Under the pieces are notes generated by a model that was not told the origin of the DNA, made no database searches, and saw nothing but the letters and a program-made list of their open reading frames with translations. Shown here piece by piece: positions 3,958-32,360 of a DNA stretch of 64,000 nt (within the stretch, counting starts at the first letter, position 1; every line of letters starts with the position of its first letter). Source of the DNA: an uncultured Gammaproteobacteria bacterium. Its GTDB lineage: Bacteria; Patescibacteriota; Microgenomatia; PFEM01; JAHIFH01. The DNA lies in NCBI GenBank assembly GCA_964347135.1, contig CAYFXA010000001.1:7563-71562 (forward strand), given 5' to 3'. A program made the position numbers and the translations under genes.

Positions 3958-4754
3958 TAAATGCCCGGAACATCATAAGTAATTAGCCCTTTTCGCCAAA
4001 CAGTCTTCAAAAGGTAATAAAAAAGAAATACCCAAACGCTGGTGATCAGAATCGCTGTTAATACTTCGATTGGTGCCATCTGCCCCAGCCAAACTTTTAA
4101 GGGATAGTAAACTATATAAGGAAAAGGAGTTAAACGAAGAATTTTTTCAAAAATAGGCGGTAAAACATCTAAAGGAAAAAATCCCCCACCACCAAATTCC
4201 AAAAAAATAACAATAAATAAAAATCTTGGTGCCCAAACATCAGCTACCCAAAAACCAGTACTACCCGCAACTAAATTTAAAATGAAATAGAGGATAGTTG
4301 CCAGGAAACAAAGAATTATAAAGGCAAAGATATAGAACAAATTAGTCTGAAAAAAGAGAGATGGTTTAAATATTAAAATTATCAGTCCCAACTCGATTAT
4401 AGTAAAAAAGATATTAAGAACCTTATCAGCTAAATCTCGACTCGCCCAGAATTTAAAAATTCCGATGGGACGTAAAAACCAAGGAGCAATTTGTCCGGTT
4501 TTAATTTGTCCGGCTAAATCAGCTGTCCGGGATGCCAAAACAATACTCCTTAAAACAGCAATTCCAAGAGTATAAGTCAACATTTGGCTTTTTTGATAGC
4601 CAAGTAAGCTCTGTCTATCTCCGTAGAGAGCACTCCAAAAGAAAAACAAAGAAAGTAATAAGACAAAGTTTCGAAATCGCCAAAGAAAAAAGTTAACGCG
4701 GTAAACAAAATATTCTTCAAAAGTATTTTTAGTTAACTGAAGATACTTACGCAT
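3957..4754 (-). CDS. ABC-2 family transporter permease
   Basis: Multi-TM hydrophobic protein. Start placed at the internal Met MRKYLQLTKNTF (4754), giving only a small overlap with the ATPase gene. Confidence 0.55.
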   Translation of the reverse strand: MRKYLQLTKNTFEEYFVYRVNFFLWRFRNFVLLLSLFFFWSALYGDRQSLLGYQKSQMLTYTLGIAVLRSIVLASRTADLAGQIKTGQIAPWFLRPIGIFKFWASRDLADKVLNIFFTIIELGLIILIFKPSLFFQTNLFYIFAFIILCFLATILYFILNLVAGSTGFWVADVWAPRFLFIVIFLEFGGGGFFPLDVLPPIFEKILRLTPFPYIVYYPLKVWLGQMAPIEVLTAILITSVWVFLFYYLLKTVWRKGLITYDVPGI

Positions 4755-5763: not shown

Positions 5764-6036
5764 CTACCTGACTGCCTTCTTAAGTGGTTTGCCCGGAGAA
5801 AATCTTGGCGCCCGATGGCTTTTGACCATCTTTTTTTCGTTGGTTCCAGGAATAATTACTGGTTTGTCCTTGACCTTGACAACACGAAAAGTGCCGAAAC
5901 CGGAAAGAACGACTTTATCACCTTTTTTCAAAGCATTAGCAACTTCGGAAAGAAAAGTATCAATTGCCTCCCGCGAAGCTCTTTTAGTTAAATGGGCTTT
6001 AGTTGCCACTAAAGAAACAATTTGTTTCTTGGTCAT
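5764..6036 (-). CDS. hup: DNA-binding protein HU
   Basis: 90 aa; TKRASREAIDTFL...GFGTF...RNPRT-like arm (SHRAPRFSPG); HU/IHF fold. Confidence 0.85.
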   Translation of the reverse strand: MTKKQIVSLVATKAHLTKRASREAIDTFLSEVANALKKGDKVVLSGFGTFRVVKVKDKPVIIPGTNEKKMVKSHRAPRFSPGKPLKKAVR

Positions 6037-9484: not shown

Positions 9485-9561
9485 CGGGGTGTGGCGCAGT
9501 TGGCTAGCGCGTGCGCATGGGGTGCGTAAGGTCGCGGGTTCGAGTCCCGCCACCCCGACCA
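9485..9561 (+). tRNA. tRNA-Pro (anticodon GGG)
   Basis: Manual cloverleaf: acceptor CGGGGTG/CACCCCG, 4-bp D stem GCGC/GCGC, anticodon stem TGCGC/GCGTA with loop A-T-GGG-G-T, T arm GCGGG-TTCGAGT-CCCGC. C1:G72 plus A73 are typical of bacterial tRNA-Pro. CCA is encoded. Confidence 0.85.
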
Positions 9562-26010: not shown

Positions 26011-26651
26011 GCTTTTTTACCTGAAAAAGTTTCTTTCAATTTCTCAATACTTTCTTCCATCAAAACCAACTGGTCATGACTCAAAACTTGATAAGTATTA
26101 AGTTGATTTGCTTGGGCAAGTTCCACTCTTGCTAAATTTCTACCTGCTCGAATAACATTTTCCAAAACACTTGGTAAAACCAACAGGACTTTTTTCTTTT
26201 CTTTTAATGGCAAACCCGCCATGGTTTTAGCCATTTCTTTGGTTTTTGGCTCAATCTTGGCTAAACCTTTGATGGCGACGACTTCTTTTTCTTTCAACTT
26301 GCTCGTCAAAGCAGAGAAAAGAGCTTTTTTCTTCATTGCTTTGCTCATTTTGAGTTTATAATTTTCCTTCCCTGTTGGCCCATGGGCTCGACCCCCACCA
26401 ACAAAAATCGGAGCATAGCGGTCGCCATGTCGAGCTCGACCCGTTCCTTTTTGACGCCAAATTTTTCTTCTTGAACCCCTAATCTCGGCTCGGGTCTTGG
26501 TTTTAGCCTTAGCCTTTCTTTGATTGGCTAAGTAAACCCTGACTGCTTGAGCCATAAGCTGCTCATTCACCGGAGCCGCAAAAATCTCTTTAGGCAAATT
26601 AATTCGCCCTGACTTTCTGCCCGTGATGGTGTACAAATCTGCTTTAGGCAT
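26007..26651 (-). CDS. rplD: 50S ribosomal protein L4
   Basis: L4 family. Confidence 0.9.
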   Translation of the reverse strand: MPKADLYTITGRKSGRINLPKEIFAAPVNEQLMAQAVRVYLANQRKAKAKTKTRAEIRGSRRKIWRQKGTGRARHGDRYAPIFVGGGRAHGPTGKENYKLKMSKAMKKKALFSALTSKLKEKEVVAIKGLAKIEPKTKEMAKTMAGLPLKEKKKVLLVLPSVLENVIRAGRNLARVELAQANQLNTYQVLSHDQLVLMEESIEKLKETFSGKKA

Positions 26652-27498
26652 TTTCCTCCTTAGGGGCTTCTTCAGCCGGTTTTTCTTCTTTTTTCTCGGT
26701 TGGCTTTGCTTCTTTGCCTGGTTCAGGCTTTTCCTCTGCTGTTTCCGCTGCTTTCAAAGCTTCTTTGGCTTCTTTTTCTCGTCGTAAACGCTCAGCTCGT
26801 TGTTCTTCGGTTTCTTCGATTTTTTTCTCTCCTTTTTTAAGTAAAGGCACAAACCGTTTAACTTTGCCTGTTTTGATAATGGTTAAAAAACCATTGATCG
26901 CTCCTGGCACTAAGCCTTTTACAAGCAATTCATCTTTTTTTTCATCAATTCCCATTACCGTTAAACCCAAAACCGTTACTTTATTTCCCCCAGCTCGACC
27001 CGCCATTTTTTTACCTTTTCGAACTCGCCCAGGTGTGGTTCCTTGACCAATTGAGCCTGGAGCTCGTTCACGGTCAGACTGGCCATGAGTCCGAGGACCA
27101 CCTTTAAATCCCCAGCGCTTAACTACGCCGGTAAAGCCCTTGCCTTTTGCCCAACCAGTTACTTTGACTTCATCTCCTGGCTGAAAAATGTCAGCAACCT
27201 TAATTTGGTCGCCAACTTTAAGCCTATCTGCTGGTTTTTCGAGCCTAATTTCGCCTAAAAAGCGAGGAGCTTTTTTTAGCTTAGCTCCTCGAAGATGTCC
27301 TTGTAATTGTTTGCTTACCTTAGTCATTTTTTTCTCTCCCCAACCAATTTGAATTGCATTATAGCCATCTTTCTCTTGCTTCCGAATATGAACCACGTAA
27401 CAAGGTCCGGTTTTGATTCTGGTAACCGGAACTCGCCCACCATCTTGAGTGAACCTTTGAACAGTTTTACCTTTTGTGCCTAAAATAGCGTTTAACAT
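26644..27498 (-). CDS. rplC: 50S ribosomal protein L3 with about 70-aa Lys/Glu-rich C-terminal extension
   Basis: Start at MLNAILGTKGKT (27498); the longer track ORF would begin inside the terminator hairpin. The C-terminal KKGEKKIEETEEQRAERLRREKEAKEALKAAETAEEKPEPGKEAKPTEKKEEKPAEEAPKEENA is not found in typical L3. Confidence 0.85.
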   Translation of the reverse strand: MLNAILGTKGKTVQRFTQDGGRVPVTRIKTGPCYVVHIRKQEKDGYNAIQIGWGEKKMTKVSKQLQGHLRGAKLKKAPRFLGEIRLEKPADRLKVGDQIKVADIFQPGDEVKVTGWAKGKGFTGVVKRWGFKGGPRTHGQSDRERAPGSIGQGTTPGRVRKGKKMAGRAGGNKVTVLGLTVMGIDEKKDELLVKGLVPGAINGFLTIIKTGKVKRFVPLLKKGEKKIEETEEQRAERLRREKEAKEALKAAETAEEKPEPGKEAKPTEKKEEKPAEEAPKEENA

Positions 27499-27512
27499 TT
27501 TTTCCACTAAAA

Positions 27513-27531
27513 AGAGTGCCGGAGGCACTCT
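27513..27531 (-). terminator. terminator/attenuator hairpin in the rplC leader (AGAGTGCC-ucc-GGCACUCU followed by UUUU)
   Basis: 8-bp perfect stem with a 3-nt loop followed by a U-tract on the minus strand. It sits 10-15 nt upstream of the rplC ATG and about 60 nt downstream of a consensus promoter. Confidence 0.45.
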
Positions 27532-27598
27532 TAGCAGTTACTCCCTAAATTAACTCAATTTTTTCAATAGGTGTTGAACCTCACCTCCATTAGAGATA

Positions 27599-27627
27599 AT
27601 TATAGGAAAATTGAAGAAAAAATGCAA
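27599..27627 (-). promoter_or_regulatory. sigma70-type promoter TTGCAT-17-TATAAT driving rplC and the downstream r-protein operon
   Basis: Minus strand has TTGCAT (top 27622-27627), an exact 17-nt spacer, and TATAAT (top 27599-27604). Confidence 0.5.
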
Positions 27628-27667
27628 ATTGATTCCCTCGTGGACGAAGTTAGAACTATTTCAATCC

Positions 27668-28090
27668 CTAACCACCTGATTTTGAGGTAACTGGCGGGTT
27701 TTGAAACATCTTGACTGCGGCTTTGAACTTAAAAGCAATATTCTCTTCTTTGGGATTTGAGTAGCATTTTCTCACCCAAGTAAGTAAATTGTGTACGTTC
27801 CCTTTATTGTCTTTAATTTGAATTTCATCGACCTCTTTACCCTTAAAAATTACGTTAAATTCAAAATTTGGAAACTTCTTTTGCCACATTTTCCCTAAAT
27901 AAACTGCGAGTCCGATCATTGCTTTAGACTGATATGAGTCATCCGTACCACTATCTTTTAAAGAGGCAACCCAAGCTTGTACATTCTCAATACTCTCATC
28001 AGAATAATCCAAAGCTAAAACTGGGTCATTTTTTATAATATCGATATATTTTTCCCCAATCTCAATTATCTGTTTGGTTTTATCATCCAT
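27668..28090 (-). CDS. hypothetical protein inserted between rpsJ and rplC
   Basis: 140-aa ORF MDDKTKQIIEIGEKYIDII...; acidic N-terminal half; no motif recognised. Confidence 0.5.
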   Translation of the reverse strand: MDDKTKQIIEIGEKYIDIIKNDPVLALDYSDESIENVQAWVASLKDSGTDDSYQSKAMIGLAVYLGKMWQKKFPNFEFNVIFKGKEVDEIQIKDNKGNVHNLLTWVRKCYSNPKEENIAFKFKAAVKMFQNPPVTSKSGG

Positions 28091-28100
28091 AATTTTTTTG

Positions 28101-28130
28101 ATTATCTCTCAAAATTATGTTTAAAATCAA
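28101..28130 (-). promoter_or_regulatory. weak candidate promoter TTGATT-18-GATAAT upstream of the inserted hypothetical gene
   Basis: Minus strand has TTGATT (top 28125-28130), an 18-nt spacer, and GATAAT (top 28101-28106), then 10 nt to the ATG with no SD. Confidence 0.25.
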
Positions 28131-28174
28131 GAGACAATTTTAGTAAGCTTGCCCCAAGGGCAAAACTTAAACCG

Positions 28175-28483
28175 CTACATCTTAATTTCAATATCCACCC
28201 CAGCAGGAAGCTCAAGGTGCATGAGGGAGTCAATTGTTTTGCTCGTGGGCTCAAGAATATCAATTAGCCTTTTGTGGGTGAGAATTTGAAAGTGTTCTCG
28301 AGCGTCTTTGTCTGTGTGAGGACTAGTGGTGACGGTGATTAATTTTCTGTGGGTAGGAAGAGGCACGGGACCAACTACCTTGGCACCTGTGGCTAAGGCT
28401 GTTTCTAAGATTTTTTCGCAACTCTCATCGATGACTCGATGATCGTACGCTTTTAAACGTACTCTTATTCTGCCTTTGGGCAT
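28175..28483 (-). CDS. rpsJ: 30S ribosomal protein S10
   Basis: [21 protein letters not shown]... canonical S10. Confidence 0.9.
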
Positions 28484-31852: not shown

Positions 31853-31948
31853 ATATATAATTCTACCAATTTTTAAGCAAACAAAAAACCGCCTCTGTCA
31901 AGAAGCAGGTTGGCTTCAAAATTATTTTAACAAAATCATGCCTGTAAT

Positions 31949-32299
31949 TCAAGCACCACGCTCCGGATGGATTCTTTTCGTTTCGTTAAGAAGTTCAGAC
32001 AACACTTTCTCGTTTTCTGTTTCAAAATGATGATCTTGGGTAAAACTTCTTACCTCCATCGTCCCAATTTTTCCTGAACCATCAAAGACATCAAAAACAT
32101 CGTGCTGAGGTAATCTGCCTAATCCTCTTTTAAAACGGTGGTGTTCAACACAAGCTTGAGCAAGACTGCCCTCGGCTCTAATAAAAAGTTTTTCTCCTGC
32201 CCATTCGCTCGCTTCACCTGCTTTCAAAGAAATTGAGCCAACAATCTTTTCCCGACATTCTTGACAAGTTGCTCTTGCTTTTGGTTTTGTTAACAACAT
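31949..32299 (-). CDS. hypothetical protein inserted between rpsG and fusA
   Basis: 116-aa ORF MLLTKPKARATCQECREKIVG... with CxxC and CVEHH; no family recognised. Confidence 0.45.
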   Translation of the reverse strand: MLLTKPKARATCQECREKIVGSISLKAGEASEWAGEKLFIRAEGSLAQACVEHHRFKRGLGRLPQHDVFDVFDGSGKIGTMEVRSFTQDHHFETENEKVLSELLNETKRIHPERGA

Positions 32300-32360
32300 A
32301 ATTTAAAACTGCCTCTTGGGCAGCTAATTAGGCACTGTTTATGCTAAAAAAGCTCAATTT

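What the first reader, a model, noticed from the sequence alone, without database searches (positions are those of the whole stretch)
27668..28090. Unknown 140-aa protein at the S10/L3 junction
The protein (MDDKTKQIIEIGEKYIDII...NPPVTSKSGG) has no motif I can recognise. It sits in one of the most conserved gene junctions in bacteria and appears to carry its own weak promoter. Genes that colonise ribosomal operons are usually highly expressed and lineage-specific; in CPR such genes may be ribosome- or symbiosis-associated.
Basis: seen in the sequence. Interest (0 to 1): 0.5.

Follow-up and report, generated by a model that had tools for sequence, protein, structure and literature searches.

The report
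Stray small gene between S10 and L3
A real but very rare small gene of unknown function lies in the spacer between two ribosomal-protein genes in this one candidate-phyla-radiation bacterium; its relatives elsewhere never lie next to ribosomal genes, so the position looks incidental rather than a sign of a ribosomal role.

Summary

The gene lies in a clean 544-bp segment (27630..28173) that the closest genome, L001, lacks, although L001's S10 is 100% identical. The segment sits between the rpsJ stop codon and a conserved rplC promoter and leader, so it lies at a boundary between transcription units. In this clade the S10/L3 junction is not conserved: empty in L001, broken in L048, and filled by an FtsJ-like methyltransferase in Woesebacteria.

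None of 12 homologue loci (9 distinct family members) is ribosomal, and no neighbour recurs.

Best reading: a lineage-specific accessory gene, probably expressed by read-through from tuf-rpsJ. An immunity-like binding role is only a lead; it rests on a marginal DUF6278 match and on Imm53, Imm32 and NADAR neighbours. A ribosomal role is not supported. Interest is modest.

The parts
27668..28090 (-). ORF140: a 140-aa cytoplasmic alpha/beta protein of a rare family with no Pfam model
27630..28173 (.). 544-bp segment present here and absent from the closest genome L001, where 7 bp stand in its place. It holds ORF140 plus 83 bp of the 84-bp spacer upstream of it and 38 bp downstream.
   Evidence: blastn gives collinear blocks, L001 2049-5881 = window 31917-28174 and L001 5889-12798 = window 27629-20820. 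Pairwise alignment A1. GC is 0.343, but the ORF's GC3 of 0.333 equals the window mean of 0.323 +/- 0.044.
28091..28174 (-). Spacer between the rpsJ stop and the ORF140 ATG, with two RNA hairpins (28168..28145 and 28137..28102). No U-tract terminator. No Shine-Dalgarno-like motif at normal spacing; GAGAGA lies 13-18 nt upstream of the ATG.
   Evidence: RNAfold gives -23.6 kcal/mol, z = -3.28. The terminator scan finds none here. Coordinates. The Shine-Dalgarno statement is read from the sequence.
28101..28130 (-). Weak sigma-70-like match, TTGATT-18-GATAAT, 9 of 12 positions. It lies inside the second hairpin and ends 10 nt before the ATG. Not statistically supported.
   Evidence: 6 sites found in 2.5 kb against 3.4 +/- 2.0 in shuffles.
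27499..27628 (-). Context: conserved rplC promoter-like site (TTTGCA-18-TATAAT, 27628..27599) and a structured leader. The leader ends in a 9-bp hairpin, whose 8-bp GC-rich core is 27531..27513, followed by U5 just before the rplC ATG. This element marks the distal edge of the insertion.
   Evidence: 10 of 12 promoter match. About 95% identical in L001. 86% mean column identity across window, L001 and L048, although L048 has different upstream genes. Fold z = -3.05. No Rfam family matches.
28175..28483 (-). Context: rpsJ (S10), which starts 6 bp after tuf. Its stop codon is the proximal edge of the insertion.
   Evidence: 100% amino-acid identity to S10 of L001.
26644..27498 (-). Context: rplC (L3). 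The real start is the ATG at 27498. The listed GTG start at 27528 is an in-frame reading of the leader hairpin and is out of frame in L001.

Best explanation
ORF140 is a lineage-specific accessory gene, not a component of the ribosomal gene set. A 544-bp module carrying one intact gene lies in the spacer between two transcription units: tuf-rpsJ upstream, and the rplC operon with its own conserved promoter and leader downstream. This is shown.

No terminator follows rpsJ, so the gene is most likely transcribed by read-through from the strong tuf-rpsJ unit. Its own promoter-like site is not distinguishable from chance. This step is inferred.

The product is a small cytoplasmic alpha/beta protein: three helices, a three-stranded sheet, then two helices. 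It belongs to a very rare family found scattered in low-GC metagenomic bacteria and in Actinomycetes. Family members are always solitary genes in unrelated neighbourhoods. This is shown.

The most likely mode of action is as a stand-alone binding protein of the 'orphan immunity/antidote' type, which neutralises a protein toxin or effector by binding it. This step is a low-confidence inference. It rests on a marginal, colinear sequence similarity to DUF6278, on the family's mostly acidic proteins, and on Imm53, Imm32 and NADAR neighbours in some genomes. A published report says the Myxococcus immunity protein SitI2 hits DUF6278 and DUF3806.

The position next to ribosomal genes is incidental. 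In this clade the junction tolerates insertions.
For: Real gene and family.

Clean insertion absent from the nearest relative.

The distal edge abuts an rplC promoter and leader conserved in three genomes, including L048 whose upstream genes differ.

The junction varies in the clade. It is empty in L001, broken in L048, and holds an FtsJ-like methyltransferase in L002-L005.

A second, unrelated 443-bp segment specific to this genome (31918..32360) lies between rpsG and fusA, so spacers of this gene cluster differ repeatedly from L001.

No ribosomal neighbours and no recurring neighbour in 12 homologue loci. No paralogue nearby.

No terminator between rpsJ and the ORF.

Confident model whose only real structural match is 3HLZ. 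The N-terminal domain of 3HLZ resembles the T6SS immunity protein Tsi3 (PMC3792639).

The family consensus matches DUF6278 colinearly, residues 4-107 against profile positions 30-129 of 145, E 0.011. Three of 64 members hit it individually.

SitI2 is reported to hit PF19794 (DUF6278) and PF12713 (DUF3806) (PMC12390754). sitI2 is the candidate immunity gene downstream of the SitA2 toxin gene (PMC5562445).

Imm53 lies immediately upstream in L089, Imm32 lies 3.4 kb away in L087, and NADAR lies 24 bp downstream in L093.

59 of 64 family members are acidic, median pI 4.5.
Against: The DUF6278 match is below Pfam's threshold (15.7 bits against 26.4). The Actinomycete-only consensus does not reproduce it, and ORF140 itself does not hit it. 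The single DUF3806 hit (E 0.058) is at noise level.

No toxin gene lies next to any family member examined, and none lies next to the ORF in the window (rpsJ and rplC flank it).

Two Actinomycete contexts instead place the gene directly after a small transcription factor: WhiB with a 4-bp overlap, and HTH_20 with a 10-bp gap.

ORF140 is near neutral (pI 6.6), unlike most of the family.

The direction of the event is not resolved. It could be a gain here or a loss in L001. Third-position GC is native, so there is no compositional sign of recent transfer.

Expression was not tested.
Confidence: 0.5

Rival explanations
1. A lineage-specific ribosome- or translation-associated factor. On this view the position between rpsJ and rplC reflects co-regulation with, and binding to, the ribosome or EF-Tu.
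For: The gene lies inside the str/S10 gene cluster and is probably co-transcribed with tuf-rpsJ, because no terminator was found. In Woesebacteria the same junction holds a gene plausibly related to the ribosome, an FtsJ-like methyltransferase, so the site can host translation-related genes.
Confidence: 0.08
2. A partner or modulator of small transcription factors. On this view the protein binds a WhiB-like or ArsR-like regulator, and the copy here is an orphan of that pair.
For: In Nocardia the gene overlaps the stop codon of an upstream WhiB-family gene by 4 bp (three loci carrying the identical protein). In Spirillospora it starts 10 bp after an HTH_20 (ArsR-type) gene.
Against: The other contexts have no upstream regulator. 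They show an amidase, Imm53, membrane ORFs, unknowns and NADAR. The three Nocardia loci are one observation. No regulator lies next to the gene in the window.
Confidence: 0.12
3. A functionless passenger. On this view the ORF was carried in by an illegitimate recombination event and is on its way to decay, with no role in this genome.
For: Only 3 contigs on record carry this protein and its cluster has one member. The nearest relative lacks it. There is no Shine-Dalgarno-like motif at normal spacing (sequence). The promoter-like site is at chance level.
Against: The ORF is full length relative to homologues and has the same start. It keeps all nine near-invariant residues. The AlphaFold model is confident along the whole chain apart from the last 10 residues. 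Third-position GC matches the genome, which suggests long residence. CPR genomes are small and tend to lose useless DNA (general knowledge).
Confidence: 0.12
4. A small-molecule-binding or enzymatic protein unrelated to toxin immunity. On this view the conserved D28, S33, Y64, W105 and K121 form a pocket.
For: A handful of polar or aromatic residues are conserved in at least 90% of 64 sequences. The one structural neighbour, 3HLZ, has no known function, so it does not exclude this reading.
Against: No catalytic-family match in Pfam, NCBIfam or PDB. The conserved residues are equally consistent with helix capping and core packing. No metabolic neighbourhood recurs.
Confidence: 0.1

Closest known systems
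PDB 3HLZ, 'BT_1490' of Bacteroides thetaiotaomicron (JCSG structure, function unknown)
   Different: Sequence identity is 10-13% and no sequence method links the two. 3HLZ is 268 aa and has an additional N-terminal beta-sandwich domain resembling Tsi3 (PMC3792639). That the match falls on the other, C-terminal part is my inference; the tool gave no coordinates. I recall that 3HLZ corresponds to Pfam DUF3805 plus DUF3806. This is unverified.
Pfam DUF6278 (PF19794) and DUF3806 (PF12713), the families reported to be hit by the Myxococcus xanthus immunity protein SitI2
   Same: The family consensus aligns colinearly with DUF6278 (residues 4-107 against profile positions 30-129 of 145, E 0.011). 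Three of 64 members hit it individually (best E 0.005) and one hits DUF3806. Sizes are similar (about 130-170 aa) and both occur in Actinomycetes.
   Different: All scores are below the curated thresholds (15.7 bits against 26.4). ORF140 itself gives no hit. A profile-profile test could not be run. No family member examined is next to a toxin gene, whereas sitI2 follows sitA2 (PMC5562445).
FtsJ/TlyA-like methyltransferase gene found between rpsJ and rplC in Woesebacteria and Microgenomatus (L002-L005)
   Same: It occupies the same junction, with nearly the same spacer length (667-672 bp against 676 bp here), in related CPR genomes.
   Different: The protein is unrelated (BLASTP E 34), with a Rossmann-type FtsJ domain (Pfam E 1e-26). 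Its start overlaps the rpsJ stop codon (ATGA), whereas ORF140 has an 84-bp structured spacer.
Strain-specific ORFan or accessory genes inserted in intergenic spacers
   Same: A single small gene, present or absent between close relatives, placed exactly between a stop codon and the next promoter. A second such segment lies between rpsG and fusA in the same genome.
   Different: There are no transposase, integrase or tRNA genes, no target-site duplication, and no terminal repeats that would name a mobile-element class.

Membership tests
Ribosomal protein or ribosome-associated factor | Match to a known ribosomal or translation-factor family by sequence or fold | tested here: not met
Ribosomal protein or ribosome-associated factor | Conserved genomic linkage of family members with ribosomal-protein genes | tested here: not met
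   0 of 12 homologue loci. The gene is absent from the nearest genome.
Ribosomal protein or ribosome-associated factor | Physical association with ribosomes | not testable with these tools
   Needs ribosome-fraction proteomics or cryo-EM.
Pfam DUF6278 (PF19794) | Score at or above the gathering threshold (26.4 bits) | tested here: not met
   ORF140 gives no hit. The family consensus scores 15.7 bits, E 0.011. Three of 64 members have E <= 1, best 0.005.
Pfam DUF6278 (PF19794) | Profile-profile or fold-level homology | not testable with these tools
   No DUF6278 alignment or structure was available. The AFDB libraries were offline.
Pfam DUF3806 (PF12713) | Score at or above the gathering threshold | tested here: not met
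   One of 64 members hits, at E 0.058.
Polymorphic-toxin immunity protein | Gene immediately downstream of, or paired with, a toxin-domain gene | tested here: not met
   In the window the flanking genes are rpsJ and rplC. No toxin domain is recorded next to any homologue. At best the gene is an 'orphan' immunity gene.
Polymorphic-toxin immunity protein | Occurrence among other immunity or antidote genes | tested here: inconclusive
   Imm53 is adjacent (L089), Imm32 is 3.4 kb away (L087) and NADAR is adjacent (L093). Nine other loci show nothing of the kind.
Polymorphic-toxin immunity protein | Neutralises a cognate toxin | not testable with these tools
   Needs co-expression or binding assays, and no candidate toxin is known.
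FtsJ/TlyA methyltransferase (occupant of the same junction in Woesebacteria) | FtsJ domain | tested here: not met
   No Pfam hit. BLASTP against the L004 protein gives E 34. The predicted fold has a three-stranded sheet and is not a Rossmann fold.
Mobile element (IS, MITE or integron cassette) | Terminal inverted repeats, target-site duplication, an attC-like site or a recombinase | tested here: not met
   No boundary direct repeats. The only boundary-related repeat is a 19-nt imperfect inverted repeat with one arm inside rpsJ. No repeats are shared with the second inserted segment. The 3' tail is 38 bp, too short for an attC site. No integrase or transposase lies nearby (gene list), and the only tRNA is at 9485.
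Phage or plasmid gene | Homologues in phage or plasmid collections | tested here: not met
   tblastn against phages and plasmids found no family homologue; the only match was a chance-level hit (E 8) inside a cobyric acid synthase gene on a Vitreoscilla plasmid. BFVD fold search: none with E <= 0.001. IMG/VR scan: none.

The most novel reading that the evidence does not exclude
The position is adaptive rather than incidental. On this reading the ORF140 family are antidote or protection proteins against toxins that attack the translation apparatus (EF-Tu, S10/NusE or the ribosome), or ORF140 is a CPR-specific factor that docks on EF-Tu, S10 or L3. The gene was then fixed between tuf-rpsJ and rplC so that it is made in step with its client. 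This would be a new class of translation-protecting protein, with a fold so far seen only in one uncharacterised structure.
Probability: 0.06. Interest if true: 0.6.

Novelty: new member of a known kind. Interest (0 to 1): 0.28.

Why it matters
As it stands, this is an ordinary case of a strain- or lineage-specific accessory gene. Three modest points follow.

1. It defines a previously unnamed, very rare protein family: about 60 clusters among 5.8 billion. The family has a confident fold that otherwise appears only in one orphan structural-genomics entry.
2. It shows that the supposedly invariant S10/L3 junction is a variable site in Microgenomatia-type CPR bacteria. The junction is empty, broken, occupied by an FtsJ-like methyltransferase, or occupied by this gene. 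This matters for anyone using synteny of the ribosomal gene block for binning or phylogeny.
3. If the DUF6278/SitI2 lead holds, the gene would be an orphan immunity gene in an episymbiotic bacterium. That would bear on how CPR cells survive contact with hosts and competitors.

Tried and rejected
- **Single-sequence family searches.** Pfam, NCBIfam, PADLOC, PHROGs and PDB gave only noise hits such as HECT and Colicin-DNase at E about 0.1.
- **Word-indexed protein search with the single sequence.** It found only the protein itself. The exhaustive search was needed to find the family.
- **Look-up of the window's own protein in the contig index.** Not on record.
- **Pattern scans for relatives.** GTDB genomes, JGI metagenomes (twice) and IMG/VR gave no confirmed hit. 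Two scans with the 16-sequence alignment failed because it has no conserved block.
- **AlphaFold without an alignment.** It gave only pLDDT 64.7 and was replaced by the alignment-based model.
- **AFDB fold search.** The library was unavailable. The BFVD viral fold search gave nothing.
- **PDB sequence searches with both family profiles.** Nothing, and 3HLZ was not recovered.
- **Last protein search at E <= 10, meant to reach members annotated as DUF6278 or DUF3806.** It returned only the family itself.
- **Consensus-sequence scans.** Only the mixed consensus hits DUF6278; the Actinomycete consensus does not. The ten low-GC members scanned singly gave no DUF hit.
- **'BT_1490 = BtuG1, a B12-binding protein' as a functional lead.** Rejected. 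The published BtuG1/BtuH region is a different, larger architecture, and its authors found no PDB neighbour for it (PMC8941943). The locus label of 3HLZ therefore cannot be used to carry a function across.
- **Low GC of the insert as a sign of foreign origin.** Rejected. Third-position GC equals the genome mean, and the contrast comes from the GC-richer first and second codon positions of the flanking tuf, rpsJ and rplC genes.
- **Remnant of the FtsJ-like gene.** Rejected.
- **Rfam.** Nothing credible in either inserted segment or in the rplC leader.

Full report
**Observation**

It lies between rpsJ (28175..28483) and rplC. All genes from rpoB/rpoC through the S10 and spc blocks run on the minus strand.

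rpsJ starts 6 bp after tuf. The true rplC start is the ATG at 27498. The GTG at 27528 in the ORF list is an in-frame reading of a conserved leader hairpin, and in the closest genome it is out of frame.

**Is it a gene?**

Yes. The word-indexed search found only the protein itself. An exhaustive HMMER scan of 1.84 billion cluster representatives found 16 clusters at E <= 1e-3. The best has 52% identity over the full length, E 6.5e-40. A profile of these found 57 proteins among 5.8 billion. Most of the named ones are 'hypothetical protein' from Streptomyces, Nocardia, Actinomadura, Nonomuraea, Spirillospora and related genera, and none carries a Pfam domain.

The family members are 128-173 aa long. 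The closest homologues start with the same 'MD.K'. ORF140 keeps all nine residues conserved in at least 90% of 64 sequences: L27, D28, S33, V63, Y64, L103, W105, P113 and K121. The family is sharply bounded: relaxing the cut-off to E 10 added nothing outside it. It is rare, and the clusters looked up hold only one or two sequences each.

**What the sequence is not**

Pfam, NCBIfam, PADLOC, PHROGs and PDB sequence searches are empty apart from noise. No family homologue turned up in the phage or plasmid collections; the only match was a chance-level hit (E 8) in an unrelated Vitreoscilla plasmid gene. BFVD and IMG/VR also gave nothing.

**Structure**

Without an alignment AlphaFold was unconvincing (pLDDT 64.7). 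With the 64-sequence alignment it gave pLDDT 92.7 and pTM 0.86. The elements are helices at 3-19, 33-46 and 51-72, strands at 77-83, 86-93 and 99-101, and helices at 102-111 and 118-130. The last ten residues are disordered.

[quoted passage not shown] By elimination, ORF140 should match the other domain; this is my inference. The label 'BT_1490' points in the literature to BtuG1, a larger B12-binding lipoprotein. Its authors found no PDB neighbour for their domain (PMC8941943), so I do not carry that function across.

**Anatomy of the locus**

The closest genome in the GTDB species set is L001, a Patescibacteria MAG. Its S10 is 100% identical, its L3 about 80% and its EF-Tu 93%. There rpsJ and rplC are separated by 141 bp with no gene.

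blastn gives three collinear blocks at 77-82% identity. These define exactly two segments specific to this genome: 27630..28173 (544 bp, holding ORF140) and 31918..32360 (443 bp, between rpsG and fusA).

The ORF140 segment begins right after the rpsJ stop codon. It ends 1 bp before a promoter-like TTTGCA-18-TATAAT (27628..27599, 10 of 12 positions). A leader follows, which ends in a 9-bp stem, of which the 8-bp GC-rich hairpin 27531..27513 is the core, plus U5 just upstream of the rplC ATG.

That promoter and leader are about 95% identical in L001. Across window, L001 and L048 they show 86% mean column identity, which is higher than the coding DNA. In L048 the genes upstream of rplC are entirely different. 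In this lineage rplC therefore heads its own transcription unit, and the insertion lies at a boundary between units, not inside a tight operon junction.

**The junction in relatives**

About 60 non-CPR loci retrieved with L3 have aligned S10-L3 gaps of roughly 20-190 bp, mostly 45-55 bp. Within Microgenomatia-type CPR genomes the junction varies:

- Four genomes (two labelled Woesebacteria, one Candidatus Microgenomatus and one mislabelled MAG; L002-L005) have a gap of about 670 bp. L002, L004 and L005 hold a 181-182-aa FtsJ-like methyltransferase gene whose start overlaps the rpsJ stop; in L003 the gene was detected by tblastn only (61% identity to the L004 protein). The L004 protein scores Pfam FtsJ E 1e-26.
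- L048 has no S10 or tuf within 6 kb upstream of rplC.
- L001 is empty.
- The window has ORF140, which is unrelated to the methyltransferase.

**Signals around the ORF**

The 84-bp spacer upstream of the ORF folds into two hairpins (28168..28145 and 28137..28102; z = -3.28). Neither is followed by a U-tract, and the scan finds no terminator between rpsJ and the ORF or between the ORF and the rplC promoter. Read-through from tuf-rpsJ is therefore the simplest route to expression; this is an inference.

The 'own weak promoter' exists as a 9-of-12 match (28130..28101). Such matches occur at about the chance rate here, 6 found against 3.4 +/- 2.0. There is no Shine-Dalgarno-like motif at normal spacing (sequence).

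**Composition**

The insert is AT-richer than its flanks (0.34 against about 0.44). This reflects the GC-rich first and second codon positions of tuf, rpsJ and rplC. The ORF's GC3 (0.333) equals the window mean (0.323 +/- 0.044). There is no compositional sign of recent foreign origin, and gain here cannot be told apart from loss in L001.

No transposase, integrase, nearby tRNA, target duplication or terminal repeats were found. One 19-nt imperfect inverted repeat (16 of 19) pairs the distal edge of the insert (27627-27645) with a site inside rpsJ (28217-28235). By my rough estimate it is of borderline significance.

**Context of homologues**

I examined 12 loci for 9 family members.

- Low-GC contigs:
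  - small membrane ORFs (L081);
  - NUDIX, MFS and 3-demethylubiquinone-methyltransferase-like genes (L086);
  - unknown genes near Rrf2-IscS-NifU, with a Y1 transposase 3 kb away (L090, L091);
  - rhamnose-pathway genes and unknowns (L092);
  - a NADAR gene 24 bp downstream (L093);
  - one contig too short to judge.
- Actinomycetes:
  - directly after an HTH_20 gene (L082);
  - overlapping the end of a WhiB gene (L083-L085, which carry one protein);
  - after an amidase and before a SnoaL_2 gene (L088);
  - with Imm32 3.4 kb away (L087);
  - with Imm53 as the upstream neighbour (L089).

None is ribosomal, no neighbour recurs, and no paralogue is nearby.

**Function**

The evidence excludes little beyond a ribosomal or known housekeeping identity. 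The best lead is a marginal but colinear match of the family consensus to Pfam DUF6278: residues 4-107 against positions 30-129 of 145, E 0.011, 15.7 bits against a threshold of 26.4. Three individual members also hit it (best E 0.005), and one hits DUF3806.

A 2025 paper reports that the Myxococcus xanthus immunity protein SitI2 hits exactly these two families (PMC12390754). sitI2 is the candidate immunity gene downstream of the toxin gene sitA2 (PMC5562445).

Other features fit an 'orphan immunity/antidote-type binding protein': the mostly acidic family (median pI 4.5), the solitary scattered genes, and the occasional Imm53, Imm32 and NADAR neighbours. This remains a low-confidence inference. 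The match is below threshold. It is not reproduced by the Actinomycete consensus or by ORF140 itself. No cognate toxin is seen anywhere, and I could not run a profile-profile test.

The adjacency to WhiB and ArsR-type genes in two Actinomycete lineages supports a rival reading, a partner of small regulators.

**Verdict**

It is a new member of a familiar kind, a small accessory gene of a rare uncharacterised family sitting in a permissive spacer.

The more useful by-products are three. The S10/L3 junction is variable in this CPR clade. rplC has its own conserved promoter and an attenuator-like leader. A second inserted ORF lies between rpsG and fusA.

Noticed in passing
window 27499..27628 (-); L001 5881..6021; L048 about 5890..6033: rplC has its own conserved promoter-like site (TTTGCA-18-TATAAT). 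Its leader of about 100 nt ends in a 9-bp stem, whose 8-bp GC-rich core is AGAGUGCC-UCC-GGCACUCU, followed by U5, about 10 nt before the start codon. The element is more conserved than the coding DNA across three genomes, one of which has different upstream genes. It looks like a ribosomal-protein leader or attenuator, comparable to the L4-controlled S10 leader of E. coli (comparison from memory). No Rfam family matches it. Three sequences are too few to judge covariation.
   Followed up: partly
window 31918..32360, ORF 31949..32299 (-): A second segment specific to this genome (443 bp against 13 bp in L001) lies between the rpsG stop and the conserved region upstream of fusA. It holds a 116-aa ORF (MLLTKPKARATCQECREKIVG...) preceded by a GC hairpin followed by a short T run (32324..32308). 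It has no Pfam, PDB or Rfam match and shares no repeats with the ORF140 insert.
   Followed up: partly
L002 5356..5901, L004 5357..5905, L005 5346..5894, L003 about 4056..4577: In Woesebacteria and Microgenomatus genomes a 181-182-aa FtsJ/TlyA-like methyltransferase gene without an S4 domain fills the rpsJ-rplC junction. In L002, L004 and L005 its ATG overlaps the rpsJ stop codon (ATGA), which suggests translational coupling of an rRNA-modifying enzyme to S10; L003 was checked by tblastn only.
   Followed up: partly
L048 4264..6000: In the second-closest genome (L3 about 75% identical) rplC is not preceded by rpsJ or tuf at all. Upstream lie a methyltransferase, a PsbP_2-like 186-aa gene on the other strand and a 97-aa membrane ORF, yet the rplC promoter and leader are retained.
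   Followed up: partly
window 26644..about 26860 (-), C-terminus of L3; also L001 and L048: L3 carries a C-terminal extension of about 70 aa rich in Lys, Glu, Ala and Pro (…EETEEQRAERLRREKEAKEALKAAETAEEKPEPGKEAKPTEKKEEKPAEEAPKEENA). The window, L001 and L048 share it. The Woesebacteria L3 proteins lack it (225-237 aa).
   Followed up: no
window 27627..27645 and 28217..28235: A 19-nt imperfect inverted repeat (16 of 19) pairs the distal edge of the ORF140 insert with a site inside the rpsJ coding region. In an rpsJ-ORF140 transcript it could form a long-range stem enclosing the whole ORF. By my rough estimate its significance is borderline.
   Followed up: no
L083 5714..6423, L084 2739..3454, L085 2194..2909; L082 5673..6438: In Nocardia the family member overlaps the stop codon of an upstream WhiB-family gene by 4 bp, with a DUF4254 gene upstream of that. 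In Spirillospora it starts 10 bp after an HTH_20 regulator and lies near an HTH_31/DUF5753 and DUF397 pair.
   Followed up: no
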